From assembly GCA_046350795.1 (NCBI GenBank), contig JAXLZT010000001.1, forward strand, positions 80,468-144,467: DNA of 64,000 nucleotides, written 5' to 3'. This DNA is from Minisyncoccota bacterium (lineage in GTDB: Bacteria > Patescibacteriota > Minisyncoccia > Phycocordibacterales > CALRHW01). A program made the translations under genes and the position numbers. Positions 42,687 through 54,907 of the stretch are shown in pieces (the first letter of the stretch is position 1; every line of letters starts with the position of its first letter). The notes beneath the pieces are model-generated. The model saw only the letters and a program-made list of their open reading frames with translations. It ran no database searches and had not been told where the DNA came from.

Positions 42687-44162
42687 TTATTCTATCTCTT
42701 CCCAAGACAGTATCGTATATTGATCAGATGTAAGAGGAAAACTAGGCGGTGGACCATATAGAAGATTGGCATCATATATTATCTGTCTTGTGTCATATCC
42801 GGTCCCATCTGTATAAGCAAAACCATAACGATTGTAGGTAGCCAACATTCCATACAGAGTAATAATGCTTCTTGTATACCAATTATTTCCACCAGATTTA
42901 CAGCTAGTACTGTAATAATACCTTCCCACTCTGCCGTTTTGTGCCACCAAAGCAGCATCTATACGTAGATCGTTCTCGCTCACCATTCCCACGTTTATAT
43001 CTTTCTGTGCAATAAGAGAAAGAACGTCTTGTCCATCATAGTTTGTATATTTTAAATCATTATTTACTGTAATACTCGTGCGTGTAGACGAGTTATCTGG
43101 AAACTTACCCGAAGCAATGGTGAGTCTAGCTGTATTTATAGTGCCCTCTACCCACAAATTGTCCTCAACAAAAATAATTCCGTTGGTTGGAAAGTTCTGA
43201 TTTGATTGCAAAAGAGTCGTACCATTGACACTCCATGTTCCCCATCCAGTTTGATTTTGAGAATTGGAACAACTACCGGGTGGAGACACCAGTGTGTTTA
43301 CTTTGTATAAATCAAACTTATCATTATTTTTTAAAACTAGTTTATATCCAAGGGCACCAGATCCAGCAAAATATCTTCCAGAAGACTGAGCGCTGGATTT
43401 CATCTGGGCTAAATCAGAAGTAAGACCAGTAAAATCAACTGCTGGCACAGGAAACTGTCTGCCGGCCTCAAAAACATCTGCTCTAGTGGGCACGGGACTA
43501 GTAGGCGGTGCCTCATTTGGACGAAAAGCATCATTTATTCCAGAAGACGGTGGTGCGTTAACATGTGTATGTACAGCAAACTCATTATTACCACTATGAT
43601 CTGGGTCGTCGTACTCAGAAAGAGCACTTGAAATAGTGTTATGTGCCAAACCATCAAAACGAATTCCACCGTTTGAATGAATTGGTCCAAATACTTCTGT
43701 ACCTTCTCCAAAACGCATATCTCCGTTTGAAACAAAAGCAAATTTTGCAAAAGAAGCTATAGCCAACTGTGATTCTATAGTACGAGAGGCGCTGGGATCA
43801 GCGAGTACATTACCGGTAGACCTAATCTTTACAATAGTTGTGCCAGTAGGCGGTGGTGTTATGGTTAAAACAAAATTTCCAACTTCCACACCGTCTTTAT
43901 CATAAAAAGAATGAGTATATGGTCCAGGCTGACCAGTACCATCTTGATAGTCTTGTGGTGCATGAGCTAAATGCCACCTATAATAATCTATCCCTGCTTC
44001 TGCTATTTGTATTGCTTGCTCTCTGTATACAGAGCGTTTTGATAATTTTATATTTGAAGCGCCCCACATAATAAGACCACCCATTACAACCACAGCAATA
44101 GAAGAAAAAACGAGCGCTTGGATTATTAGAAAACCACTTTTTTTGTTTCGAGAAGCTATCAT
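42687..44162 (-). CDS. type IV pilus-associated protein with PilX-like N-terminal anchor (putative minor/tip pilin)
   Basis: N-terminal KKSGFLIIQALVFSSIAVVVMGG hydrophobic helix, large Gly/Asn/Thr-rich beta domain; in pilin cluster. Confidence 0.55.
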   Translation of the reverse strand: MIASRNKKSGFLIIQALVFSSIAVVVMGGLIMWGASNIKLSKRSVYREQAIQIAEAGIDYYRWHLAHAPQDYQDGTGQPGPYTHSFYDKDGVEVGNFVLTITPPPTGTTIVKIRSTGNVLADPSASRTIESQLAIASFAKFAFVSNGDMRFGEGTEVFGPIHSNGGIRFDGLAHNTISSALSEYDDPDHSGNNEFAVHTHVNAPPSSGINDAFRPNEAPPTSPVPTRADVFEAGRQFPVPAVDFTGLTSDLAQMKSSAQSSGRYFAGSGALGYKLVLKNNDKFDLYKVNTLVSPPGSCSNSQNQTGWGTWSVNGTTLLQSNQNFPTNGIIFVEDNLWVEGTINTARLTIASGKFPDNSSTRTSITVNNDLKYTNYDGQDVLSLIAQKDINVGMVSENDLRIDAALVAQNGRVGRYYYSTSCKSGGNNWYTRSIITLYGMLATYNRYGFAYTDGTGYDTRQIIYDANLLYGPPPSFPLTSDQYTILSWEEIE

Positions 44163-44776
44163 AAATTATCTTTCAAATTTCTTGGTGTTACTTGAGATGT
44201 AACAGTAGATGGACCAGGTGGACGATTTACATCTTTATCAATTGTAACGTTGATTTTTATAAGGCGCACTGAAAGCGTATCTACCGGCATAGATAAAGGT
44301 GTAGTAGTGCCAGCATAAGATGAATCATAATAACTAAATATTGGTGAGCTTGTAGCGTTTACCACATTTGTTATTAAAGTTTCTATTTTTTCTGTACCAG
44401 TATAACCCACTGGATTACCCGAAGGATCTACCACACCCTTTTTTAAAGATCCATTTTGTAAATAATAACGCACTTTTTCTTTTGACCCATCATTATCTAT
44501 ATCAGTGTAAAAAGTCATAGTACTAGTGGCCGCCTGAGCTATAGGATATGCACCGGCTGCAGACTGAGACATAGATCGTAATTCCCCCACCATAATACGA
44601 AGCACCCTACCACCTTCAAATTGCGCATTGAGACTACCCTGCAAACTATAATTGAGAGAAAAAATATCTTTCTGAAATGTTGTAATGCCCACTATTATCA
44701 GAGTCAAAATACCGAGCACCACTAGGGTTTCTACAATCGAATATCCGCTATTATTTTTTTTAAATCTAAAATACAT
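44159..44776 (-). CDS. type IV pilin-like protein (prepilin-type N-terminal domain)
   Basis: NNSG-YSIVETLVVLGILTLIIVGI class III signal / methylation motif. Confidence 0.7.
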   Translation of the reverse strand: MYFRFKKNNSGYSIVETLVVLGILTLIIVGITTFQKDIFSLNYSLQGSLNAQFEGGRVLRIMVGELRSMSQSAAGAYPIAQAATSTMTFYTDIDNDGSKEKVRYYLQNGSLKKGVVDPSGNPVGYTGTEKIETLITNVVNATSSPIFSYYDSSYAGTTTPLSMPVDTLSVRLIKINVTIDKDVNRPPGPSTVTSQVTPRNLKDNL

Positions 44777-44780
44777 AAAT

Positions 44781-46559
44781 TTATTCTGGTAAAAGGACAA
44801 TGTCATGTTGTTGCCAATTTGCTGAGACCGGTACAGAATCAGTCACATCCTCATATCCAGTTCTAGAAACAGTTACATCATAAGTGCCAGCAGATAAATC
44901 AGAGAAGAAAGCTTGTCCGGGCGGTATACAAGAGGAGGTATAAGTAAAAGAAATCTGCGCGATATTTGGTGTAAGCGTTGTGCTAGCTGTGTTTAAGAAA
45001 ATTTTATATCTTAAATATTCATTGTTATTGTGTGCTGAACTTAAATCTGGTGTAGAAATTGTGTAATAAGATCCAGCGGTACCATCTGGTCCAATAAAAT
45101 TCCATGTAGCATTGTCATTGTTAGTTGCCACTTTGAAACGTACATTGTCAGCACCAGTATCTGCTGGCTGACCTACAGGCTCCCACAATATCTTATTAAA
45201 ATTGCTTGTCGTACCGGTATCAAAAGTTGAGCTTATCAAAAAACCATCAGTAATATATGTACCGAATACATTTCTCAATCTCAACTCACCTGTCGGATTA
45301 TTTGTCTCAATATTTCCATCTGAACTAAAATACTGATCATCATTTACCATATTTGATTGACCACTACCGCCAGACCAATCACTTTGAGTAGAGAAACCTT
45401 GACCAGTAATAAGGGTTTGAGTGAAAGAACCAGATGTAATAGTCACCTCTGCGCCAGATATCGGTAGTTGTGTACTCGCATCCCTCACAGATACGAGCAG
45501 GCTTTTAGTATTTTTAGGAACCACAATCAAGTCCACGTCTTGGGACGAATTTGGAACAAGAGCAAATGGGTTTGGCGGATTCATACCCACCAAATCATAT
45601 GAGCTATCAGTAAGGTCAACAGTGTATGTATCCCAGCGCATATTTGACACAGTTTTTCTCCCAGAAGAATTTGTAACATGATCCACAGAATATTTCCTTA
45701 CATCAGGATTTGTACCAATAGAAGTAGCGCCGGTAAGTGTAAAATCGATATTTGGCACCGTCGCGCAAGATGGAGTAATACTAGAAAAATTGATGGTGCT
45801 CACGCGATCTATAACCAAAGTGACTTGGGTCACTTGTTGCACTGCCACAGTTGCGTGTGGCTTTATTGGATTTGGATTATTTACATCACCTGAAGTATAT
45901 GTCTGATCACTTGTATACCCGGACTTGCTTACTGTTATCTGATAAGACTGCACTCCAGGTGGCACATCCACCACCTGCAACATACCAGATGTATTGGTAA
46001 CGTCATCAATTACAAGATCCGGATTGGGTTGCGTATTTACAATATGCACATCTGCATCAGATACGGGCTGACCATTTGAATCCAATACCTGAATAAAAAG
46101 TGCGCCATTTGTAGAAGCTGTCTCTAAATTTTTTGGAGCAACCCTAGAAGTAATACTCATTCCAGAAAAATTTTTACATGTATCACAAGTCACCCCTATT
46201 TCCACAAGACGATAGTCAGCTGGAGAGAGATCATTTGGTGATTGACCAATAAGCCCATCAAAAGGATCGTCTATATTTCTTATGGTTGTGGTGACCAAAA
46301 AAGAAACACCGTCTCGCACCAAAGTCTGCTCATGTGGCAAAACACCAGACGGCACAGAGTTGACTATACCTACATCTACATATTCAAGATTGCGAATAAT
46401 TTCAAACTGTTCGTTTATCAAATTCGCAGCTGTTATTTTTACATGCGAAGCGCCTACTACACCATATATAGAAGTAAATCCGCCATAAACACTGACAGAT
46501 ACAAGTAAAAACAGAGCGACTCCCACAAGCACTTCTACTAGAGTAAGACCTTTATTCAT
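44781..46559 (-). CDS. large (592 aa) type IV pilin-like protein with C-terminal beta-sandwich domains
   Basis: MNKG-LTLVEVLVGVALFLLV prepilin N-terminus followed by long Thr/Ser/Asn/Val-rich domains. Confidence 0.7.
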   Translation of the reverse strand: MNKGLTLVEVLVGVALFLLVSVSVYGGFTSIYGVVGASHVKITAANLINEQFEIIRNLEYVDVGIVNSVPSGVLPHEQTLVRDGVSFLVTTTIRNIDDPFDGLIGQSPNDLSPADYRLVEIGVTCDTCKNFSGMSITSRVAPKNLETASTNGALFIQVLDSNGQPVSDADVHIVNTQPNPDLVIDDVTNTSGMLQVVDVPPGVQSYQITVSKSGYTSDQTYTSGDVNNPNPIKPHATVAVQQVTQVTLVIDRVSTINFSSITPSCATVPNIDFTLTGATSIGTNPDVRKYSVDHVTNSSGRKTVSNMRWDTYTVDLTDSSYDLVGMNPPNPFALVPNSSQDVDLIVVPKNTKSLLVSVRDASTQLPISGAEVTITSGSFTQTLITGQGFSTQSDWSGGSGQSNMVNDDQYFSSDGNIETNNPTGELRLRNVFGTYITDGFLISSTFDTGTTSNFNKILWEPVGQPADTGADNVRFKVATNNDNATWNFIGPDGTAGSYYTISTPDLSSAHNNNEYLRYKIFLNTASTTLTPNIAQISFTYTSSCIPPGQAFFSDLSAGTYDVTVSRTGYEDVTDSVPVSANWQQHDIVLLPE

Positions 46560-46567
46560 GGTTTAAA

Positions 46568-47788
46568 TTAAATTGCGTCGGCAAGAGAATACATCGGTCC
46601 GAGCATAGATATCGCAAAAAATCCAACACCGATACCAATAACGACCATCAAAAATGGTTCTATAATGGTCGACATGTCTTTTGTTTTTTGATCAACCTCT
46701 TCTTCATAAAATTGAGCTACGTTTGCAAGCATTTCAGATAATTTTCCTGTCTCCTCTCCAATGCTCACCATCTCCCCCACAAACACCGGGTAAAGTTTTT
46801 CGTGTTTTAAGAAAATATTTGAAACCGGATCTCCTTTTTCTATATTTATCTCAGCCTCTTTTAACACAGCTTTATAATAAGAATTTTGAATAACATCTTG
46901 TGTAATACGTACAGCCACAAGCACATCCACACCAGAAGAAAGTAGAGAAGAAAAAGTACGTGCAGTACGAGCGGAGTTGAGATCTTTTACAATTCCAGAA
47001 ATCACGGGTACGTGAAGCACAAAAGTATCTAAAGCCCTCTTGCCTCTTTTTGTCTTTATAGAAAAATAAAAAACCAAACCAACAGTAATAAGGATTAATA
47101 GATTTATAATAATATGATTTTTCAAAAAGTCTGACAGCCAAATAACCATTTTTGTAGAAAAAGGTAAGGAAACATTCAAATCTTTAAAGGTTGATGTAAG
47201 TGTCGGCACCAAATATATAAGCATCAAAACACCTATAGTAATCATAATAGACAAAATAATTGCTGGATATATGAGCGCTCCACGAATTTTTTTTGTAAGC
47301 TGATAAGCTTTTTCAAGCTGAGCAGACACCACCTTAAGAGACTGAGTGACACTACCGCTTTCCTCTCCAGATTTAACCATTGATACAAAGAGTGAAGAAA
47401 AAACATCCAAATGCTTTGCCATTGCCTCACTTAGAGCACTTCCCTTGCCGATATCAACATTGAGTTCACCTATTACTTTTTTAAATTTCTTATTTTTTGT
47501 CTGTCGCTCCATTACAGAAAGCGCACGCGCCAAAGGCAATCCAGCTTCTATCATTGTGCCGAGGTTTTTTGCAAACATTATCTTGTCTATTGTCTTAACC
47601 CTACCCAGTAGATTGCCAAAATGAATATTTTTAACAAAACCCACTCCATCTTTTTGCTCCTCAGCAAAAGTAACGGTGTCCCCGTCTAGACGAATCTGCT
47701 GATATAGAGCAGATTTACTTTCTGCTTCTTTTACACCACTATATTTTTCACCCGTCTTTTTTACCGCTTTGAAGTTAAATTTTGGCAT
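46568..47788 (-). CDS. pilC: type IV pilus assembly platform protein PilC (GspF family)
   Basis: two T2SS-F repeats, three TM segments. Confidence 0.88.
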   Translation of the reverse strand: MPKFNFKAVKKTGEKYSGVKEAESKSALYQQIRLDGDTVTFAEEQKDGVGFVKNIHFGNLLGRVKTIDKIMFAKNLGTMIEAGLPLARALSVMERQTKNKKFKKVIGELNVDIGKGSALSEAMAKHLDVFSSLFVSMVKSGEESGSVTQSLKVVSAQLEKAYQLTKKIRGALIYPAIILSIMITIGVLMLIYLVPTLTSTFKDLNVSLPFSTKMVIWLSDFLKNHIIINLLILITVGLVFYFSIKTKRGKRALDTFVLHVPVISGIVKDLNSARTARTFSSLLSSGVDVLVAVRITQDVIQNSYYKAVLKEAEINIEKGDPVSNIFLKHEKLYPVFVGEMVSIGEETGKLSEMLANVAQFYEEEVDQKTKDMSTIIEPFLMVVIGIGVGFFAISMLGPMYSLADAI

Positions 47789-47815: not shown

Positions 47816-49570
47816 TTATTCTGATACCACACGCAATATTTCTTCTATTGTGGTCTGACCCTGAACAGCTTTGAAAATGCCGTCTTCTATCATAGACAAC
47901 ATACCTTCGGCTTTTGCTTGTTTCTCTATTTCTTTATCAGTCTTACCCTGCATCACAAGCTCTTTTATAGCTGGAGACACCTTGAGCACTTCGTATATAC
48001 CCACTCGGCCACTAAAAGCTTGCTCAGGGTCTACACCGGCTTTTGGTCTATAAAAAGGTATTTTGTCCCAAGACACTTTTCCTTCTACCACCTTTTCTTC
48101 TTTCAAAAACTTTAAGACACGATCAAGGTCAACGGTTTTTTTCAAAGTTTCTATCTCGGCGTCAGTCAAAAAGTATTTTTCTTTTTTATCAGTAAGTTTA
48201 CGAACGAGACGCTGTGCAATAACTACGTTTAATGTAGAGACGATTAAAAACGGCTCGACTTTCATATCTATGAGACGAGGTATCGCACCTGCAGCTGAGT
48301 TGGTGTGCAGTGTGGAAAGCACGAGATGACCTGTAAGTGATGCGTTGACCGCAAGAGAAGCTGTCTCACCATCACGGATCTCTCCCACCATGATAATGTC
48401 TGGGTCCTGACGCACTAGTGTGCGTAGACCGTTACTAAAGGTCAATCCTATCTCAGACTTTACTTGCGTTTGGTTGATACGATTCATTTGATACTCTACC
48501 GGATCCTCTATAGTAGAAATATTTACGTCAGGCGTATTTAAAATATCAAGCATTGTATATAGAGAAGTGGTCTTTCCAGATCCTGTCGGTCCAGTAGTGA
48601 GTATGAGTCCAGTCGTCTGATTCATTGCCTTGTGTATTTGCTCTAGAGCCTCACCGTGATAACCGAGTACTTCGAGAGTAAATCCAGAAGCTGATTCGCG
48701 AAGCAAACGCATTACAGTCTTTTCTCCGTAGTAAATAGGCAAAGTAGAAACACGGAAAGAAACTTTTTCTCCGTTCATGTCTATTTTAAAGCGACCGTCT
48801 TGTGGTAAACGCTTTTCATCTAGCTTTAGATTTGCGAGCACTTTTATGCGTGCGGTGATACTAGTAGAAATATTTTTAGGTAATGTCATAGCGTCATGAA
48901 GCATACCGTCGATACGGTATCTGACTATCACCTGATTTTCGAGGGGCTCGATGTGAATATCAGAAGCGTTTTGAATAATTGCATGTTTTAAAAGAGTATC
49001 GACTATGCGCACCACAGGCATATCCTCAGCAAGCTTCTTGAGGTCGCTCTCTGACACATCTTCGTTTTCACCTCCATCGGCTACAGCTTTTATGGACACG
49101 GATTCTTTTTGAATCAAATCTCCAAATTCTGCCTTAAGACTTTTTTGATATTGCAAAAGCACACTCTTAATAGATTCGCTATCAGTCAAACGAGGCAATA
49201 TTTTCAATCCAACTTTCTTTTTTACAAAATCAATAGCGGTCAGATTGGCAATATCAAGCATTGCCACCTCGAGTCCCCCAGGTACTTTTTTAAAACCAAC
49301 TATATTGTGATTGCGAGCAATAGGTTCTGGAATAAGAGCGAGCACATCAAAATCTATCTTTATACCCTTTAAATCAACAAAAGGAATACCTAAAATATTA
49401 GCCTGAATCTTGCGCAATTCATCCTCACCTATCTTACCCTTGCTTACAAGTACTTCTCCCACATCAACATCCTTTTCCTCTGCCTCTTTTTCTGCAGAAG
49501 CAAAATCGGCTTTTGATACAAGACCAGAGTCCAAGATGAAATCTTTAAATTGTTTTTCTTCAATGTGCAT
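47816..49570 (-). CDS. pilB: type IV pilus assembly ATPase PilB (GspE family)
   Basis: N-terminal GSPII_E_N domain, Walker A TGPTGSGKTTSLY, Asp box, His box. Confidence 0.92.
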   Translation of the reverse strand: MHIEEKQFKDFILDSGLVSKADFASAEKEAEEKDVDVGEVLVSKGKIGEDELRKIQANILGIPFVDLKGIKIDFDVLALIPEPIARNHNIVGFKKVPGGLEVAMLDIANLTAIDFVKKKVGLKILPRLTDSESIKSVLLQYQKSLKAEFGDLIQKESVSIKAVADGGENEDVSESDLKKLAEDMPVVRIVDTLLKHAIIQNASDIHIEPLENQVIVRYRIDGMLHDAMTLPKNISTSITARIKVLANLKLDEKRLPQDGRFKIDMNGEKVSFRVSTLPIYYGEKTVMRLLRESASGFTLEVLGYHGEALEQIHKAMNQTTGLILTTGPTGSGKTTSLYTMLDILNTPDVNISTIEDPVEYQMNRINQTQVKSEIGLTFSNGLRTLVRQDPDIIMVGEIRDGETASLAVNASLTGHLVLSTLHTNSAAGAIPRLIDMKVEPFLIVSTLNVVIAQRLVRKLTDKKEKYFLTDAEIETLKKTVDLDRVLKFLKEEKVVEGKVSWDKIPFYRPKAGVDPEQAFSGRVGIYEVLKVSPAIKELVMQGKTDKEIEKQAKAEGMLSMIEDGIFKAVQGQTTIEEILRVVSE

Positions 49571-49656
49571 AATAGTAGTGCAACAATGAAATTATTATAT
49601 CAGAAAACAAAACACACATCTGTGGAGATGTGTGTTTTGTTTAAAAAAACGCAAAA

Positions 49657-50463
49657 TTAATTTTTAACACAATACAACAAAGCAATGTATGGATTTAACA
49701 TGTTCATTGCCTCAGCGTTTCCAGTAGCACCTATACTAGGTGAGGACGTATTTGGATTATCCCAAGGAATGTCTACGTTTTGTTGACAAGTGCCCCCAGA
49801 ACAATAATTTTTTCCTGTATTTCCAAAAGCGTTTACAAGATAATTTCCATTATTATTTATGGTGTGATTATGAGATGCCATCTGTTCTAAAGTCTGTACA
49901 ATAGCCTCCTGACCACCCTTTTGTCCTAAAGTATGATTTGTACTAGCAGTGGATCCACTTCCTGTATTAGAGTTTCCTACTCCCAGTATTACTCTACCTG
50001 CACCATCAGTAAAAGGACTCCATCCAGATGGGCATGAAGATAGGTTGAAAGACATGACCGCACCAGAAGGAGCATTTATCACAACACCGCCACTATTTGT
50101 CGGCCACTGTGTAATACAAGCATCTCCTATACAAAAACCTGTGCGACTTTTTGAGTATCCCACCACATCAAGCATTTGAGTTGGCGCATCTGTACCAATA
50201 CCAACCTTGCCAGCATAAGCAGAAAAACCGAGATCATCTTGCAACACAGCGGCGCCCACAGTAAGTCCTCCTTGTTTTATCTGACCGACTGTACCTAAAT
50301 TTATAGGCGGTCTACATCCAGGCGTAAAGTTGTTAGCACAATCTGGCGGTGGAGATGAAGGCGCACTCCAACCAAAAACAGTTACAGAACCAAAGTAAAA
50401 TACGCAGGTTAAAAGAACAATCTTAATATTTTTTATAATTTCTTTTTTATTATTCATATTCAT
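49657..50463 (-). CDS. secreted phage tail-collar/MdpB-like domain protein, paralog 1
   Basis: signal peptide, conserved CPSGWSPFTDGAGRVILGVG...LGQKGGQEAIVQ...H-x-H...NPYIALLYCVKN resembling tail-collar / microcystin-dependent protein domains. Confidence 0.65.
   Translation of the reverse strand: MNMNNKKEIIKNIKIVLLTCVFYFGSVTVFGWSAPSSPPPDCANNFTPGCRPPINLGTVGQIKQGGLTVGAAVLQDDLGFSAYAGKVGIGTDAPTQMLDVVGYSKSRTGFCIGDACITQWPTNSGGVVINAPSGAVMSFNLSSCPSGWSPFTDGAGRVILGVGNSNTGSGSTASTNHTLGQKGGQEAIVQTLEQMASHNHTINNNGNYLVNAFGNTGKNYCSGGTCQQNVDIPWDNPNTSSPSIGATGNAEAMNMLNPYIALLYCVKN
49895..50051. repeat. 157-bp block 100% identical to 50711-50867 and 51530-51686 (within three paralogous genes)
   Basis: direct comparison of sequence text. 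Confidence 0.9.
50132..50184. repeat. 53-bp block identical to 50939-50991 and 51770-51822
   Basis: direct comparison; encodes QMLDVVGYSKSRTGFC on minus strand. Confidence 0.85.
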
Positions 50464-50469
50464 AATCTT

Positions 50470-51267
50470 CTAAGGTAAATCTTTAGAACAATAAAGCAAT
50501 GTGACATATGGATCCGTAATATTCATTGGACTGCCACCCAAATTGTTATTAACGGTTGGGGTAAAAAAATCTCCAGTAGTAATAATAGAATTTGAACTAA
50601 CACAAGATTGATTGGTGCAAAAATTTTTTTGTTGTTTACCAAGATAGTTCACCCAAATAGGATAGTTGCCGGTCGCGGCATGATTGTGCGGAGGAAGTTG
50701 AGACGCTTCTTGTACAATAGCCTCCTGACCACCCTTTTGTCCTAAAGTATGATTTGTACTAGCAGTGGATCCACTTCCTGTATTAGAGTTTCCTACTCCC
50801 AGTATTACTCTACCTGCACCATCAGTAAAAGGACTCCATCCAGATGGGCATGAAGATAGGTTGAAAGCCGCAACAATAGCGCCAGAAGGTATACTTGATC
50901 CACCAGCATTCCAGTTTTGTATACAACTATCATTGATGCAAAAACCTGTGCGACTTTTTGAGTATCCCACCACATCAAGCATTTGAGTTGGTTCAATAGT
51001 GCCTATACCGGCCTTTCCTTTCAAGACCAAAAGGCTTGGTTGGCTTGCATCCAAACCATAACCAACAGTAAGGCCTCCCTGTTTTATTTGACCGTCACCC
51101 CCCAAGTGTAATGGCGCATCACATCCAGGATAATTTGTAGGGCAATTGGTTGGACTGCCTGGTGGAGGGCTCCATGCTCCATAAACAGCATTTACACCAA
51201 CACTCAAAAAAAATGCAATTACTACTATCTTAAAATTTTGTAATATTTTTTCTTTTAGAAGATTCAT
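50470..51267 (-). CDS. secreted phage tail-collar/MdpB-like domain protein, paralog 2
   Basis: same conserved core as 49657-50463, divergent N- and C-terminal flanks. Confidence 0.65.
   Translation of the reverse strand: MNLLKEKILQNFKIVVIAFFLSVGVNAVYGAWSPPPGSPTNCPTNYPGCDAPLHLGGDGQIKQGGLTVGYGLDASQPSLLVLKGKAGIGTIEPTQMLDVVGYSKSRTGFCINDSCIQNWNAGGSSIPSGAIVAAFNLSSCPSGWSPFTDGAGRVILGVGNSNTGSGSTASTNHTLGQKGGQEAIVQEASQLPPHNHAATGNYPIWVNYLGKQQKNFCTNQSCVSSNSIITTGDFFTPTVNNNLGGSPMNITDPYVTLLYCSKDLP
50711..50867. repeat. 157-bp identical block, copy 2
   Basis: direct comparison. Confidence 0.9.
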
Positions 51268-51279
51268 GGCGTATTTAAA

Positions 51280-52107
51280 TTAATTTTTGGAACAATAAAG
51301 TAATGTGACATATGGATCCATAATATTCATCGGTAACGGACTATCTGAACCTATTGGTTGCAACCACACCGTACCTTGATTGTTATATGCATTTTTAAAA
51401 TTTCCACCACTGCAATTATTTGATCCCTGTTGACAGCTATTAATACTAGGAACACCAATAGGCCTCAACCAACCAGAAGACCCGCCACCATTAAACGAAT
51501 GGCTATGAACTGCCACCTGTGATTCGTCTTGTACAATAGCCTCCTGACCACCCTTTTGTCCTAAAGTATGATTTGTACTAGCAGTGGATCCACTTCCTGT
51601 ATTAGAGTTTCCTACTCCCAGTATTACTCTACCTGCACCATCAGTAAAAGGACTCCATCCAGATGGGCATGAAGATAGGTTGAAAGGTAAAACGGTACCA
51701 GAAGGAAGTTCTACCACATTATCACCGCCAGTCGCCCATGAAAAAGACGTGATACAGCTATCGTTGATGCAAAAACCTGTGCGACTTTTTGAGTATCCCA
51801 CCACATCAAGCATTTGAGTTGGTTCGGTCGTACCTATACCAGCTTTTCCGCCAGCAACAGCAAAGCCAAGAGAATCTGTAGACAAACTTTCACCAAGTAT
51901 TAAACCGCCGTCTTTTATCTGCCCGTAAGATCCAATATGAACTGGTTTATCACAACCAGTAGCGCCAGAAGGGCAATTGTTTTCAATGTTTGGAATACCA
52001 GGTGGACCCACCCAAGCCAAAAGAGTGCTCACCCCTGTGCCAAGCATAAAGGTTAACAAAGCTATTTTCATCCAATCAATAATTTCTTTTTTTATAAAGC
52101 TTTTCAT
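51280..52107 (-). CDS. secreted phage tail-collar/MdpB-like domain protein, paralog 3
   Basis: same conserved core; C-terminus DPYVTLLYCSKN. Confidence 0.65.
   Translation of the reverse strand: MKSFIKKEIIDWMKIALLTFMLGTGVSTLLAWVGPPGIPNIENNCPSGATGCDKPVHIGSYGQIKDGGLILGESLSTDSLGFAVAGGKAGIGTTEPTQMLDVVGYSKSRTGFCINDSCITSFSWATGGDNVVELPSGTVLPFNLSSCPSGWSPFTDGAGRVILGVGNSNTGSGSTASTNHTLGQKGGQEAIVQDESQVAVHSHSFNGGGSSGWLRPIGVPSINSCQQGSNNCSGGNFKNAYNNQGTVWLQPIGSDSPLPMNIMDPYVTLLYCSKN
51530..51686. repeat. 157-bp identical block, copy 3
   Basis: direct comparison. Confidence 0.9.
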
Positions 52108-52116
52108 TTTTTAAAA

Positions 52117-52452
52117 TTATTTTGCTGTCATTGAGTTGATAAGTTTGTTCTTTTTCTCTACGGACAGGCCCGCTTGGCTTGATTTTGCTGTACTAGACTT
52201 TATAAGTGCCTGTCTTTCTTTTTCAGTAAGATTTGATGGGCCTTTTGCTGTCATTGAATTGATAAGTTTTTGTTCTGGAGTCATCTGAGAATCTGGAGAA
52301 GTGCCCGTCTTTTCTTTAAACATAAAAATTATAGCAACAAAAACAATTAGGCACGCTATAAAAATAACAACCCATCTAGTTTTATTGTGTTGAGAGTCGG
52401 CAACTTGATTTATGTTATTTAGATTGTTATCCATGTCATTTAAATTATACAT
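52117..52452 (-). CDS. small single-TM protein with three (L/I)INSMTAKGPS-type repeats
   Basis: TM WVVIFIACLIVFVAIIFMF; repeats seen in translation; ATG overlaps stop of upstream 762-aa gene (translational coupling). Confidence 0.55.
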   Translation of the reverse strand: MYNLNDMDNNLNNINQVADSQHNKTRWVVIFIACLIVFVAIIFMFKEKTGTSPDSQMTPEQKLINSMTAKGPSNLTEKERQALIKSSTAKSSQAGLSVEKKNKLINSMTAK

Positions 52453-54740
52453 TAAAATTCATTTGTATCTGGTTGCGCTACTACAACTATAGAGTTATCA
52501 CATTTTTTAACAGTAGAAACACCATTTACATTTGTAGCTGTAACATAAAGCTCTTTTATTCCAGTTGTAGCATATGTTTTTACAAAGTTTGTATTAGAAC
52601 CCGTAGATGTTGGATTAACATTTGTTCCCTCCCAAGAATATGTTAGTGGATTTAGTGGATCAACAGTCGCTGGTGTAGCCACCCAAGTAACAGGATTGTT
52701 TACCAAATATGGCGGACCGCCCGCTGCTTTACATGAGGCCAAATCGAAAGATGGTACAAGCACTGGAATAGTAACTGTTTTTTCTGGAATAGAAGATTGG
52801 CCCTTAACAATAACTTCGTACATACCAGGGTCAGTATCTGGAGATACATTTATTGAAAGAGTCTTTTGACAATCTGGTTTGCAACTAGCATTTGCAGGCA
52901 GAGACGCTGTGAGTGGTGAGGTAGCACCACCCGGCGCATTTACCTGAACTGATAAATCAACTGTTTCTGTCTTTCCAGAAGTAAGGGTTAAATTGATATC
53001 GGAAGTTACATTGTGAGTTTCTCCCGGAACAGTCCAGCTAGTAAAACCACTCGGTAAAGCAGTAATAGAATAATCAAAAGGAGCTGGAACGCCATAGGTT
53101 ACCTTATGATAACCATTCACAGGATCATTAAACCGGATCCATCCAAGCGCTTCTCCACCCCACATTGATCCCATTATACGAGCAGTCTTTCTGTTGTAAG
53201 TAAGTCCAGCATCTCCGTGTTCATGACTATAGCCGGTTGGGAAAGTATTATCAGAAAGTTTTATCCAACCATCAAATCCTGGAGTGCTATCTCCACTCAA
53301 GACTCTAGCCCAACCAGCAATAGAACCAACATTCTGATCTATGTTTGTTAGACTAGCAACGTCACTTGAATTATTTGGTCCTGTTAGACCACCAAAATTT
53401 ATCCAACCCACAGAATCACTCCAAGCATGACCAGAAAGTGTTCCAGATCCACCCATAACACCGCCATTATTTACACTTACTCCAAAACCACCGGATGTAG
53501 CACAAGGTGAATCGGCCACACCATCCTGATCTTCATCAAAACAACTATTCATCTGTATCCAGCCAATGTTGTCTGACCAAGCATATCCAAAAATATTACC
53601 AATTTCATTTTCTACACACTGGCCATTTACAGGCTCAGTATTGCCCTGACACTTTGCTTCACATTTTGGCGCACTACCAGATGGAGAACTACATGAAGCT
53701 ACTGTTGTATAAGGAGTATCAGCTGTCAGACCGGTGCCATCTCCAGCACAAAGGGTAGAATTTGCAGGAAGAGTACCTGTGCATGAATAGGTGGGAGCTG
53801 GAACACAAGAATCTGAATTACCCGGACCAGGAGAATAAACGTATCCTATGTCACACTCTCTTTCACATTTTGGTGCGCTTCCTGTTGGAACGCTACAAGA
53901 CTGGACCAAATCATACTGTATATTGCCACTAAACCCAGCGTTGTCTCCCGAACAAAGTACTGAATTTGATGCAACATTTCCATTACATGACCCACTCAAA
54001 CCACCTCCACCGGATTGAGTAATAGTGCCTGATTGTCTCCACTCACTCCACAATCCCTGACAGCTATCCCAATTACGCACTGCTATTTTTATAGGTTCTC
54101 CTTGATATTTTGTTGGGGTCTGAAGTTGAGCTACACCACTATATCCAGCAGGAATTACTGGTGGATAATCTACCCATATCGGCACACTTACATCTTCTGG
54201 CTCCTGATTATTTAAAATTACAATAACCTGATGCTCCTCTCCTGTTCCGTTGTTTGCAGCTGGCGGAATAGTAATATTTAGATCGTTTAAACCGGGATTT
54301 ACATACGAACCAGAAAAGCTACCGGATACCCATGTAGGTGGTACTGGAAAATCATTTGTACAAGGACCCTCTTTTCCGCCTCCACCATTGCCTCCATCAC
54401 CATCTGACATTGTTGGAGTGTAATCTTGAATACCTCCCACACCATCATTATCAATAGTAGTTATCTGGCAAGTACCGACGTTTTCAGCAGTACAAGCTGG
54501 TGGATTTCCAATACCGTTCACACCCACACAAAGACCAGACTGACACTGACTATTACTAACACATATACCACCATTTGGGGTGTTATTGGTACAAGAGAGT
54601 ACTGTTGGGTTAGCACCTTTTCCCTCTACACCAGGTGAATGAGCAACAAAAAGCATTCCTCCAAAAAGCACAGCCACAGCTAAAGCAAAAAACAAAAGTG
54701 ATCTATTACGAATAATTCCTTCTTTTATATTTTTCACCAT
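52452..54740 (-). CDS. large Cys-rich secreted surface protein with AWS-x-NIGWI repeats and C-terminal PKD-like domain
   Basis: signal anchor; CSxPxGSAPKCE Cys repeats; four G(Y/W)AWSxNIGWI-like repeats; C-terminal PYLVNNPVTW...YSWEGTN...TTGIKELYVTATNVNG PKD-like; ends ...PDTNEF. Confidence 0.65.
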   Translation of the reverse strand: MVKNIKEGIIRNRSLLFFALAVAVLFGGMLFVAHSPGVEGKGANPTVLSCTNNTPNGGICVSNSQCQSGLCVGVNGIGNPPACTAENVGTCQITTIDNDGVGGIQDYTPTMSDGDGGNGGGGKEGPCTNDFPVPPTWVSGSFSGSYVNPGLNDLNITIPPAANNGTGEEHQVIVILNNQEPEDVSVPIWVDYPPVIPAGYSGVAQLQTPTKYQGEPIKIAVRNWDSCQGLWSEWRQSGTITQSGGGGLSGSCNGNVASNSVLCSGDNAGFSGNIQYDLVQSCSVPTGSAPKCERECDIGYVYSPGPGNSDSCVPAPTYSCTGTLPANSTLCAGDGTGLTADTPYTTVASCSSPSGSAPKCEAKCQGNTEPVNGQCVENEIGNIFGYAWSDNIGWIQMNSCFDEDQDGVADSPCATSGGFGVSVNNGGVMGGSGTLSGHAWSDSVGWINFGGLTGPNNSSDVASLTNIDQNVGSIAGWARVLSGDSTPGFDGWIKLSDNTFPTGYSHEHGDAGLTYNRKTARIMGSMWGGEALGWIRFNDPVNGYHKVTYGVPAPFDYSITALPSGFTSWTVPGETHNVTSDINLTLTSGKTETVDLSVQVNAPGGATSPLTASLPANASCKPDCQKTLSINVSPDTDPGMYEVIVKGQSSIPEKTVTIPVLVPSFDLASCKAAGGPPYLVNNPVTWVATPATVDPLNPLTYSWEGTNVNPTSTGSNTNFVKTYATTGIKELYVTATNVNGVSTVKKCDNSIVVVAQPDTNEF

Positions 54741-54907
54741 ATAAAAACAACAAAGATTAATGTCGATTAAAATTATAGCACATTGCTCAAACTAAAATTT
54801 AGTTTTAAATCTGTTATGTGGATAATACTTGACTTATTGCTCAAATTTTGCTACTGTATTTGTATTAGAAGTTCGCCTCACGGCGGACTAATTTTTTTAA
54901 AAAATAT

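What the first reader, a model, noticed from the sequence alone, without database searches (positions are those of the whole stretch)
49657..54740. Surface-protein cassette downstream of pilB: three tail-collar-like paralogs, a triplicated-repeat TM protein and an AWS-repeat/PKD giant protein
Immediately after the pilB-pilC-pilin genes (same strand, short gaps) lie three tandem secreted proteins. Their conserved core (CPSGW..GRV.LG.G...G.KGG.E....L.QM..H.H...N..PY..L.YC) resembles the phage tail-collar / MdpB domain. Next is a 111-aa TM protein with three MTA-GPS repeats, then a 762-aa protein with Cys-rich CSxPxGSAPKCE repeats, four AWS-x-NIGWI repeats and a PKD-like C-terminus. Phage-tail-fibre-like receptor-binding domains co-operonic with type IV pilus machinery in a probable episymbiotic CPR cell suggest an uncharacterised adhesion or host-recognition system. 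The AWS-NIGWI repeat did not match any family I can name.
Basis: partly seen in the sequence, partly recalled or inferred. Interest (0 to 1): 0.88.

Follow-up and report, generated by a model that had tools for sequence, protein, structure and literature searches.

The report
Phage-fibre-like surface proteins beside pilus genes
A tiny uncultured (CPR) bacterium carries, next to its pilus motor genes, a fast-evolving five-gene operon for secreted proteins, including three short fibres whose tips resemble the receptor-binding ends of phage tail fibres; these are plausible host-recognition adhesins, but a working link to the pilus is not shown.

Summary
The five ORFs are real and tightly packed, all on the minus strand. 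They lie upstream of pilB, not downstream. The three paralogs each have a Sec-type signal peptide, a conserved mature N-terminus, one tail-fibre stalk unit and a C-terminal head. The head is homologous to the MdpB / phage tail-collar + T4 Gp10_C domain at family level: 26 of 46 relatives hit PF21939, and hhalign against an MdpB gives 97% probability. The window copies themselves are below Pfam thresholds.

The 762-aa protein has a four-hairpin AWS module, common in CPR and matching no Pfam or NCBIfam model, followed by two Ig/PKD-like domains.

The order nusA | AWS protein – small TM-repeat protein – 1 to 3 fibres – pilB – pilC recurs in six other loci. However, a strong hairpin plus a TGATATAAT box separates the fibres from pilB. 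The flanking housekeeping genes are equally syntenic, and relatives occur away from pilB.

The cassette evolves far faster than its neighbours. The paralogs share two 100%-identical DNA blocks, which indicates gene conversion.

Best reading: secreted, probably trimeric, tip-swappable adhesin fibres, analogous to Bdellovibrio MAT fibres. Coupling to the pilus is unproven.

The parts
52452..54740 (-). First gene of the cassette, 762 aa. N-terminal signal peptide or anchor, a Cys-rich region, the AWS four-hairpin module and two Ig/PKD-like domains. It ends in '...NEF'.
   Evidence: ORF. 100% match to U0522_00805 of a Ca. Paceibacterota MAG. AF2 model of residues 370-762, pLDDT 88.9. Ig-like structural matches.
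53121..53597 (-). AWS module (residues ~382-540). Four beta-hairpin repeats of the form G-[YHW]-A-W-S-x3-G-W-I-x-F.
   Evidence: Repeat positions. Aligns to the N-terminal module of ~430-aa CPR proteins. No Pfam or NCBIfam family. All-beta with pLDDT mostly 80-93 in the model.
53649..53900 (-). Two Cys-rich '...SC-S-x-P-x-GSAPKCE...' repeats. The repeat cores are at 53649-53696 and 53853-53900.
   Evidence: family D5, 75% identity; translation.
52479..53075 (-). Two C-terminal Ig-like / PKD-like beta-sandwich domains (residues ~556-662 and ~668-754).
52117..52452 (-). 111-aa single-pass membrane protein. TM helix at residues 27-45, followed by three short repeats (residues 57-111).
   Evidence: A counterpart sits at the same position in L003, L004, L006, L010, L011 and L012. 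One is paired with a fibre gene in L014.
51280..52107 (-). Fibre paralog C (275 aa). Signal peptide, conserved mature N-terminus, one stalk unit and an MdpB/Gp10_C-like head (from residue 135; HxH at 201).
50470..51267 (-). Fibre paralog B (265 aa), same architecture (head from residue 127; HxH at 194).
49657..50463 (-). Fibre paralog A (268 aa), same architecture (head from residue 132; HxH at 198).
49895..50051 (-). Block R2 in parA: 157 nt that are 100% identical in all three paralogs. The other copies are at 50711-50867 (parB) and 51530-51686 (parC). It encodes FNLSSCPSGW...GGQEAIVQ.
50711..50867 (-). Block R2, copy in parB.
51530..51686 (-). Block R2, copy in parC.
50132..50184 (-). Block R1 in parA: 53 nt that are 100% identical in all three paralogs. 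The other copies are at 50939-50991 and 51770-51822. It encodes PTQMLDVVGYSKSRTGF.
50939..50991 (-). Block R1, copy in parB.
51770..51822 (-). Block R1, copy in parC.
54772..54780 (-). Extended -10-like box TGCTATAAT, about 32 nt upstream of the 762-aa gene, in the divergent nusA intergenic region.
   Evidence: Read directly from the sequence. A consensus match only.
49605..49642 (-). Perfect 17-bp hairpin with A-tract and U-tract arms after the parA stop codon. Terminator-like.
   Evidence: dG -21.8 kcal/mol, z -7.1. Comparable hairpins at the same place in L003, L011, L004 and L010.
49594..49602 (-). Extended -10-like box TGATATAAT just upstream of pilB.
   Evidence: The same box precedes pilB in L011, L004 and L012.
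47816..49570 (-). pilB (T2SSE ATPase with MshEN domain). A neighbour of the cassette, not shown to be part of it.
   Evidence: E 1.9e-124.
46568..47788 (-). pilC (T2SSF platform protein). Neighbour.
   Evidence: E 1.2e-53.
42687..46559 (-). Three pilin-like genes after pilC. They are a 592-aa modular pilin (N_methyl plus CarboxypepD_reg/PEGA), a 215-aa pilin-like protein and a 491-aa protein that I read as PilX-like.
   Evidence: The PilX-like reading is by inspection of the N-terminus only.

Best explanation
The five genes form one operon for cell-surface proteins of a Paceibacteria (CPR) cell.

Fibres. The three 265-275-aa products are short phage-tail-fibre-like fibres. Each is exported by Sec and probably cleaved at a conserved A|W site. 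Each then presents a conserved mature N-terminus (W-x-x-P-x3-P...Q-x-K-x-G-x-L) that keeps it at the cell surface. Next come one 'G-I-G-T-x-x-P-x3-L-D-V' stalk unit and a C-terminal head of the MdpB / tail-collar + Gp10_C kind. By analogy with phage fibres the fibres are homotrimers, and the nearly invariant H-x-H holds a metal ion on the three-fold axis. The head is the ligand-binding tip.

Partners. The small membrane protein with three extracellular repeats is the fibres' conserved partner. I propose it acts as a membrane anchor or assembly factor. The 762-aa AWS/Ig protein is a co-expressed wall- or surface-associated component.

Variation. The cassette is a diversifying locus. Copy number differs between genomes (1 to 3), heads are swapped between relatives, and gene conversion between tandem copies keeps short blocks identical while the flanks diverge.

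Purpose. The likely role is recognition of, and attachment to, host cells or other surfaces. The neighbouring pilB-pilC-pilin genes are a separate transcription unit. Pilus retraction may act together with the fibres, but that is not shown.

Shown here: gene structure, homology of the head, conserved gene order, fast evolution, identical DNA blocks, and the hairpin plus promoter-like box before pilB.

Inferred: secretion and cleavage, trimer and metal site, anchoring by the small protein, the adhesin role, and any link to the pilus.
For: Gene packing: gaps of 6-12 nt and a one-base overlap.

Export and conserved motifs. N-terminal hydrophobic helix (residues 2-30, pLDDT 73-89). The A|W junction, the mature N-terminal motif, the nearly invariant HxH and an invariant Cys pair are conserved across 46 relatives.

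Head homology:
- PF21939 in 26 of 46 relatives, best E 3.8e-13.
- MdpB-named proteins with PF07484+PF21939 found by the family profile.
- hhalign 97.2% probability.
- PHROG tail proteins, E 3e-7 and 8e-8.
- Phage antireceptor hits, E 3e-7.
- Relatives on viral contigs.
- Weak PDB hits, all of them tail fibres aligned at the 'GG..h.lt...P.H.H' motif.

Fibre character:
- One homologue has a collagen triple-helix repeat before the same head.
- Large relatives repeat the stalk unit 10-49 times. Two of the three of these that were scanned (P0086, P0087) end in the Peptidase_S74 trimerisation chaperone.

Head swapping. The L003 fibre and the third L004 fibre keep the N-terminal part but carry unrelated C-termini.

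Partner protein. A small TM-repeat protein lies directly upstream of the fibre gene(s) in all seven loci. It is also there in L014, which has no pilB nearby.

Fast evolution:
- Against L003: NusA 97%, PilB 95%, PilC 82%, TpiA 75%, but AWS protein 41%, TM protein 36% and fibre 32%.
- Against L006: NusA 99%, AWS protein 65%, TM protein 55%.

Gene conversion. 157-nt and 53-nt blocks are 100% identical in three copies, with flanks around 40-65% identical. In L004 a 307-nt N-terminal block is identical between two copies. In L012 there are no identical blocks, so protein-level constraint alone does not explain them.
Against: - No structure for the fibres. The only AF2 run used a shallow alignment and failed (pLDDT 43), so fold, trimer and metal site rest on homology.
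- The window paralogs are below Pfam thresholds on their own.
- tblastn of paralog B against 50,697 phage records found nothing.
- No signal-peptide predictor was available; the cleavage site is read by eye.
- MdpB-type proteins have no established function in bacteria (my own knowledge), so 'adhesin' is not implied by homology.
- Nothing here shows surface display, binding or a host.
- The role of the small TM protein is a guess from co-occurrence.
Confidence: 0.6

Rival explanations
1. The fibres are accessories of the type IV pilus itself. They would be non-pilin adhesins that dock by their conserved N-terminus onto the minor-pilin tip complex, functionally like PilY1/PilC, so that pilus extension presents the phage-like head and retraction pulls the host in. 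The AWS and TM-repeat proteins would be part of that assembly.
For: - The cassette is immediately upstream of pilB, on the same strand, in seven loci whose NusA identity to the window ranges from 62% to 99%.
- Pilin-like genes, including a 592-aa modular pilin, follow pilC.
- Authors of the Bdellovibrio fibre work raise possible interplay between such fibres and type IV pili (PMC10769870).
Against: - A strong hairpin plus its own TGATATAAT box lies between the fibres and pilB, here and in related loci.
- nusA, tpiA and pgk are equally syntenic, so adjacency is not specific.
- Family members, one with the TM-repeat partner, sit in ribosomal-protein or other contexts with no pilB within 8-9 kb.
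- The fibres have no prepilin motif.
- No PilY1-type domain was found.
- In L010 a GIY-YIG gene is inserted between the fibre gene and pilB.
Confidence: 0.15
2. The cassette encodes ordinary envelope or S-layer-like structural proteins of the cell, with no role in partner recognition. Fast divergence would reflect relaxed constraint or evasion of phages that use these proteins as receptors. The position next to pilB is inherited gene order only.
For: - The fibre family is very large: 10,515 cluster representatives at E<=1e-3. It is also found in non-CPR-like contigs.
- The whole nusA...pgk region is syntenic.
Against: - The head is the kind of domain phages use at the receptor-binding ends of fibres.
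- Head swapping on a constant N-terminus and variable copy number are what binding modules typically show, not scaffold proteins.
- The Ig-like matches are generic.
Confidence: 0.17
3. The genes are a remnant of a prophage or tailocin (tail-fibre genes left in the chromosome).
For: Phage-type head and stalk motifs. Relatives occur on contigs classed as viral.
Against: - No other phage gene is nearby. The cassette lies between nusA and pilB in seven loci of differing relatedness.
- All products have N-terminal export signals.
- GC content matches the surroundings.
- No defence-system or other mobile signature.
Confidence: 0.03

Closest known systems
Bdellovibrio bacteriovorus MAT (mosaic adhesive trimer) fibres (PMC10769870)
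   Same: - Cell-encoded, not phage-encoded.
- A signal peptide is followed by an invariant N-terminal region thought to hold the fibre on the cell.
- A trimeric phage-like stalk with a 'G-small-x-x-P-x3-L' loop motif.
- C-terminal tips that are swapped between family members, some with an S74 chaperone and some without.
- Multiple paralogs per genome.
- The bearer is a bacterium that lives on other bacteria.
Sources: searches compared.
   Different: - The fibres here are very short (about 230 mature residues against up to about 1,000).
- The tip is an MdpB/Gp10_C-type head.
- The stalk motif has one extra residue (V-G-I-G-T-x-x-P against V-G-G/N-small-x-x-P).
- The conserved N-terminal part is shorter than the ~130-aa MAT domain, and its homology to that domain was not tested.
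- The genes are tandem, with a dedicated small membrane protein and an AWS protein, beside pilB.
- The organism is a monoderm-like CPR cell.
MdpB ('microcystin-dependent protein', COG4675) / phage tail collar (PF07484) + Gp10_C (PF21939) domain proteins, including T4 gp10/gp12 C-terminal domains
   Same: Homologous head. The shared motifs are '..PxGW..', 'GR.i.G.G', 'lG..GG.e.h.lt..e.P.H.H' and the closing '..N.qPY..l.y'. Evidence: hhalign 97.2%, PF21939 in 26 of 46 relatives, and MdpB names among the hits.
   Different: - About 30 residues of the Collar segment (the '..CDG...LPDL' part) are missing, so PF07484 is not matched.
- An invariant Cys pair brackets the head.
- The domain is fused to a Sec signal and a stalk.
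- T4 gp10/gp12 are virion baseplate parts.
PilY1 / PilC non-pilin adhesins of type IV pili
   Same: A Sec-exported non-pilin protein encoded next to pilus genes, with a possible adhesive role (inference).
   Different: No PilY1/PilC domain, a much smaller protein, a separate transcription unit, and no evidence of association with the pilus.
Choline-binding / cell-wall-binding aromatic hairpin repeats of Gram-positive surface proteins (functional analogy for the AWS module only)
   Same: Tandem aromatic-rich beta-hairpin repeats (G-x-A-W-S...G-W-I-x-F), placed right after the signal peptide in many ~430-aa CPR proteins.
   Different: No sequence-family match. The fold could not be compared separately from the Ig domains. 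The wall-binding idea comes from memory and is untested.

Membership tests
Pfam PF07484 Phage tail collar domain | Match to the 57-position Collar HMM at or above the gathering score (24 bits) | tested here: not met
   No hit for any window paralog at E<=1. None among 46 relatives at E<=0.01. The best related case is the first L004 fibre: 15.3 bits, profile positions 1-21 only.
Pfam PF21939 Gp10_C (T4 baseplate gp10 C-terminal domain) | Match to the HMM at or above 27 bits | tested here: inconclusive
   Window paralogs score 19.3, 18.8 and 15.6 bits over profile positions 29-133 of 139, below the cutoff. 26 of 46 aligned relatives match at E<=0.01, best 3.8e-13. Several homologues carry a precomputed PF21939 hit.
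MdpB / collar-type head domain | Profile-level homology to a bona fide PF07484+PF21939 protein | tested here: met
   hhalign of family alignment A5 against Dyadobacter soli 'microcystin-dependent protein' P0325: probability 97.2%, E 3.9e-11, 90 columns. P0325 has Collar x3 (E 4.7e-66) plus Gp10_C. The profile search E-value was 5e-26.
MdpB / collar-type head domain | Conserved H-x-H after the 'lt..e.P' motif (the metal site of phage fibres; my knowledge of T4 gp12/gp37) | tested here: met
   H198 and H200 (parA numbering) are present in at least 90% of 46 sequences. They are present in all three paralogs. Metal binding itself was not tested.
Trimeric phage-type fibre | Homotrimer with intertwined stalk | not testable with these tools
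   No multimer prediction was available, and the monomer model failed. Indirect support: a collagen repeat precedes the same head in P0009, and large relatives P0086 and P0087 end in the S74 chaperone.
Bdellovibrio MAT superfamily | Signal peptide followed by an invariant N-terminal domain | tested here: inconclusive
   The signal-like N-terminus and conserved mature motif are present. Homology to the ~130-aa MAT N-domain was not tested because no MAT full-length sequences were in hand.
Bdellovibrio MAT superfamily | Variable C-terminal tips on a common chassis, S74 or non-S74 | tested here: met
   Different heads on the same N-terminus in L003 and L004. S74-ending relatives.
Type IV pilin / pseudopilin | Class III signal: G|[FM]xxxE followed by a hydrophobic helix (N_methyl) | tested here: not met
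   A motif scan of the whole window finds it only in the 215-aa and 592-aa genes after pilC. The fibres have no N_methyl hit.
PKD domain (PF18911/PF00801) | HMM match at or above 27 bits; Ig-like beta-sandwich | tested here: inconclusive
   Sequence: 14.1 bits, E 0.049. Structure: two confident beta-sandwich domains with PKD and S-layer Ig matches. Homologues pass PKD_4 in their C-terminal region.
Operon with pilB (co-transcription) | No terminator or promoter between the fibre genes and pilB | tested here: not met
   Hairpin of -21.8 kcal/mol, z -7.1, followed by TGATATAAT. Comparable hairpins at the same place in L003, L011, L004 and L010. Read-through cannot be excluded without RNA data.
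DGR (diversity-generating retroelement) target | Template/variable repeat pair differing at adenines | tested here: not met
   The repeated blocks are 100% identical, so there are no adenine-specific differences. A reverse transcriptase was not searched for.

The most novel reading that the evidence does not exclude
The two invariant DNA blocks (53 nt and 157 nt) serve as fixed crossover points. They would let the three tandem genes exchange their N-terminal, middle and head modules, so one cell line could generate up to 27 fibre combinations by homologous recombination. This would be a cassette-shuffling system for surface variation in a CPR bacterium.

Two independent public assemblies carry such recombinants, with switches exactly at the blocks. 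L001 has modules C/A/B. L002 has modules B/C/A and comes from a slightly different strain (about 10 SNPs). Both fit a single alternative gene order.
Probability: 0.12. Interest if true: 0.8.

Novelty: new variant of a known kind. Interest (0 to 1): 0.6.

Why it matters
How episymbiotic CPR bacteria recognise their hosts is an open question, and for Paceibacteria I know of no adhesin or host-recognition protein that has been described (my own knowledge). My literature checks were narrow: two searches pairing 'tail collar' with Patescibacteria or CPR found nothing, and one broader search on type IV pili in Parcubacteria found nothing relevant.

This locus offers concrete candidates. It is a conserved three-part cassette whose fibre tips are of the type phages use for receptor binding. 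It evolves many times faster than its neighbours and swaps tips between genomes.

It also defines three sequence modules that matched no Pfam or NCBIfam model in the proteins scanned: the AWS hairpin module, the mature N-terminal 'WTxPxxxPP...QxKxG' motif and the small TM-repeat protein. The first two are common in CPR.

If the fibres bind host glycans, their heads could be used to predict or capture hosts of uncultured CPR. The parallel with Bdellovibrio MAT fibres would then point to a general solution for bacteria that live on other bacteria.

Tried and rejected
1. Direct Pfam, NCBIfam and PDB sequence searches with the window proteins gave only sub-threshold or chance hits. The catechol dioxygenase hit is noise.
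2. AF2 of paralog B with a 15-sequence alignment failed (pLDDT 43).
3. Three fold searches with the 762-aa C-terminal model returned only generic Ig-like matches. The AWS module could not be searched alone. The afdb50 library was unavailable.
4. PDB profile searches with A5 and A3 gave only non-significant tail-fibre hits.
5. The genome-contig scan needed near-exact peptide patterns and returned only 3 distant loci, so it gave no co-occurrence statistics.
6. tblastn of paralog B against phage records found no match. A more typical relative did hit.
7. Prophage and defence-system readings were rejected: no phage neighbours, and PADLOC found nothing.
8. The pilin reading of the fibres was rejected: no class III signal.
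9. The DGR reading was rejected because the repeats are identical.
10. A shufflon or invertase reading was rejected because the blocks are direct repeats; I did not look for a recombinase gene in the window.
11. The recombinant Logan contigs were considered as proof of shuffling. I did not accept this. As far as I know (not checked here), Logan contigs are built from short k-mers (k=31), which cannot resolve exact repeats of 53 and 157 nt. An independent, diverged ortholog (P0005) is collinear with parA in all three modules.

Full report
**What is there**

Region 49657-54740 holds five ORFs, all on the minus strand. In the order of transcription they are:
- a 762-aa protein (54740->52452);
- a 111-aa protein (52452->52117, sharing one base with the previous gene);
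- three paralogs of 275, 265 and 268 aa, here called parC, parB and parA, separated by 6-12 nt.

After these come pilB (T2SSE, E 1.9e-124) and pilC (T2SSF, E 1.2e-53). Next are a 592-aa modular pilin, a 215-aa pilin-like protein and a 491-aa protein that I read as PilX-like. tpiA follows. nusA is divergent on the other side.

So the cassette is promoter-proximal to pilB. The window is identical to a 562-kb contig of a MAG named Candidatus Paceibacterota bacterium, locus tags U0522_00785-00805.

**The three paralogs**

They are 54-56% identical. Each has four parts:
- an N-terminal hydrophobic helix;
- a junction that is '...A|W' in most relatives, followed by a conserved mature motif W-x-x-P-x3-P-(P)...P-x-N/H-x-G...Q-x-K-x-G-x-L;
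- one 'G-K-x-G-I-G-T-x-x-P-T-Q-M-L-D-V' unit and an 'F-C-I-x-D-x-C-I' pair;
- a C-terminal head, 'PSGAV..FNLSSCPSGWS..GRVILGVG...LGQKGGQE...Q...H-x-H...(variable)...MN..(D/N)PY..LLYC.K'.

On their own the paralogs reach no Pfam threshold. There is no PF07484 hit, and Gp10_C (PF21939) scores 15.6-19.3 bits against a cutoff of 27. parA and parB hit PHROG tail-protein families (E 3e-7 and 8e-8; 'tail collar fiber protein' at 1.4e-4).

A word-indexed search found only 14 relatives. An exhaustive profile search found 10,515 cluster representatives at E<=1e-3 and 1,784 at E<=1e-10.

Evidence from these relatives:
- Of 46 aligned relatives, 26 match Gp10_C, best E 3.8e-13.
- The family profile retrieves proteins that their sources call 'microcystin-dependent protein' and that carry PF07484 plus PF21939.
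- hhalign against one of them gives 97.2% probability, E 3.9e-11.
- A relative (the L014 fibre) hits the 'putative antireceptor' of Lactobacillus delbrueckii phages at E 3e-7.
- Related heads occur on IMG/VR contigs.
- Non-significant PDB hits are all tail fibres, aligned at the 'GG..h.lt...P.H.H' motif.

The difference is that about 30 residues of the Collar segment are missing, which explains why PF07484 fails.

An invariant Cys pair (C144, C265 in parA) and a nearly invariant HxH fit an extracellular fibre tip. By analogy with T4 gp12/gp37 (my knowledge), that tip would be trimeric and hold a metal ion on the axis.

Other relatives show the fibre nature directly. One has a collagen repeat before the same head. 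Large ones repeat the stalk unit 10-49 times, and two of the three of these that were scanned (P0086, P0087) end in the Peptidase_S74 trimerisation chaperone.

**Mosaic DNA**

All three paralogs share two blocks of 100% DNA identity:
- R2, 157 nt, at 49895-50051, 50711-50867 and 51530-51686;
- R1, 53 nt, at 50132-50184, 50939-50991 and 51770-51822.

The flanks are roughly 40-65% identical. Protein constraint does not explain this. A triplet of the same family in L012 has no shared block of 25 nt or more. In L004 the identical stretch is instead the N-terminal 307 nt of two copies. Recent gene conversion between tandem copies is the simplest account.

Two Logan contigs carry genes that switch between the window's paralogs exactly at R1 and R2:
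- L001 = C / A / B, with 0 SNPs relative to the window.
- L002 = B / C / A, with about 10 SNPs relative to the window, so it comes from another strain.

Both fit one alternative order of the same pieces. I treat these as probable assembly chimeras. As far as I know, Logan contigs are built from short k-mers (k=31), which cannot resolve exact repeats longer than k. In addition, the diverged ortholog P0005 is parA-like in all three modules. Real shuffling is not excluded, and I give it as the novel case.

**The 762-aa protein**

Four AWS/GWI hairpin repeats lie at residues 385-537. They align to a module that sits right after the signal peptide in many ~430-aa CPR proteins from Azambacteria, Niyogibacteria, Minisyncoccales and others. 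No Pfam or NCBIfam model covers it.

AF2 of residues 370-762 is confident (pLDDT 88.9, pTM 0.74). It gives an all-beta AWS module followed by two beta-sandwich domains.

In L004 the Cys-rich part and the AWS/Ig part are separate genes.

**The 111-aa protein**

It has one TM helix followed by three short repeats. A counterpart with the same layout lies directly before the fibre gene(s) in every related locus.

It also accompanies a fibre gene in L014. There the pair sits with an IS200-type transposase inside the S10 ribosomal-protein operon, far from any pilB. This makes the small protein and the fibre a two-gene unit. An anchor or assembly role is my proposal, not a result.

**Context**

The order nusA | AWS protein – TM-repeat protein – 1 to 3 fibres – pilB – pilC – (pilins) – tpiA recurs in whole or in part in L003, L004, L006, L010, L011 and L012/L013. 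L006 and L012/L013 are short contigs that break off before or just after the fibre genes. NusA identity to the window ranges from 62% to 99%.

Three facts limit what this adjacency means:
- After parA there is a perfect 17-bp hairpin with A- and U-tracts (-21.8 kcal/mol, z -7.1), followed by TGATATAAT just before pilB. A strong hairpin follows the last fibre gene in L003, L011, L004 and L010 as well. The same TGATATAAT box follows it in L011 and L004. In L010 a TATAAT precedes an inserted GIY-YIG gene, and L003 has only a weak box. L012 has the box but no hairpin. The cassette has its own TGCTATAAT box. These are two transcription units, with read-through possible.
- nusA, tpiA and pgk are just as syntenic.
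- Family members occur without pilB nearby.

The cassette evolves much faster than its neighbours:
- Against L003: NusA 97%, PilB 95%, PilC 82%, TpiA 75%, but AWS protein 41%, TM protein 36% and fibre 32%, with a different head.
- Against L006: NusA 99%, but AWS protein 65% and TM protein 55%.

**Interpretation**

The best-supported reading is a diversifying surface-fibre operon. It encodes secreted, probably trimeric, short fibres with phage-type, swappable binding heads. These are co-expressed with a small membrane partner and an AWS/Ig surface protein.

An adhesive or host-recognition role fits three things: the domain type, the tip swapping and the rate of change. It also fits the lifestyle assumed for CPR cells. 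It remains an inference. Cooperation with the neighbouring pilus is possible but not shown.

The closest described system is the Bdellovibrio MAT fibre family. It has a signal peptide, an invariant N-terminal domain, a trimeric stalk with a similar loop motif, and swappable S74 or non-S74 tips. Its authors also raise possible interplay with type IV pili (PMC10769870).

The narrow literature searches I ran found no paper linking tail-collar-type proteins to CPR or Patescibacteria.

I rate it a new variant of a known kind, of moderate to good interest.

Noticed in passing
window 42687-44162 (-) and 52452-54740 (-); proteins P0015-P0079; L010 10210-11940: Many AWS-module proteins end in a conserved extreme C-terminal motif, either '..P-x-W-[KQ]-E-[IV]-x-P-[FR]' or '..[NIKQ]-E-[FI]'. 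The window protein ends '...TNEF'. The 491-aa protein after the pilins ends 'SWEEIE', and its L010 counterpart ends 'SWKEVE'. No TM helix follows, so it is not a sortase-type tag. It may be a shared terminal strand or a recognition tag.
   Followed up: partly
window 54695-54740, 50420-50463, 52060-52107 (N-termini of the 762-aa protein and the fibres): The positively charged regions before the hydrophobic core of the signal peptides share a motif ('K-(K/E)-(E/G)-I-I-x-N-x-(K/R)') between the 762-aa protein and the fibres, here and in L003 and L006. That is unusual for Sec signals and may mark a dedicated targeting step.
   Followed up: no
L014 8691-10489: A 94-aa TM-repeat protein, a 227-aa fibre and an IS200/IS605-type Y1 transposase are inserted between rplB and rpsS in the S10 ribosomal-protein operon of another genome. 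This suggests the two-gene fibre unit can be moved.
   Followed up: partly
L010 5491-5769; L011 5100-6299: In L010 a GIY-YIG nuclease-like gene is inserted between the fibre gene and pilB. In L011 a 399-aa secreted protein with a Q-rich stretch is inserted between pilB and pilC.
   Followed up: no
window 44781-46559 (-): A 592-aa pilin with a prepilin N-terminus fused to CarboxypepD_reg / PEGA-type beta-sandwich modules. It is a modular pilin that could itself be adhesive.
   Followed up: no
window 54870-54889 (+): A GC-rich hairpin followed by a T-run lies just upstream of the nusA start, in the divergent intergenic region. Its role (leader or attenuator of nusA, or a bidirectional terminator) is unknown.
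   Followed up: no
window 49949-50179, 50765-50986, 51584-51817 (+): Three plus-strand ORFs of 73-77 aa with identical N-termini (MDPLPVLEFPTPSITLPAPSVKGLHPDGHEDRLK). They are simply the antisense reading of the invariant R2 block, not genes.
   Followed up: yes
L015 9001-9708; P0266, P0319, P0325: Full-length or head-only relatives occur in contigs that look proteobacterial (phasin, GGDEF/EAL, COX1 neighbours). They also occur in Polyangia and Bacteroidota (Dyadobacter) proteins. So the 'A|WTGPxxxPPxGN' N-terminus and the head are not restricted to CPR.
   Followed up: partly
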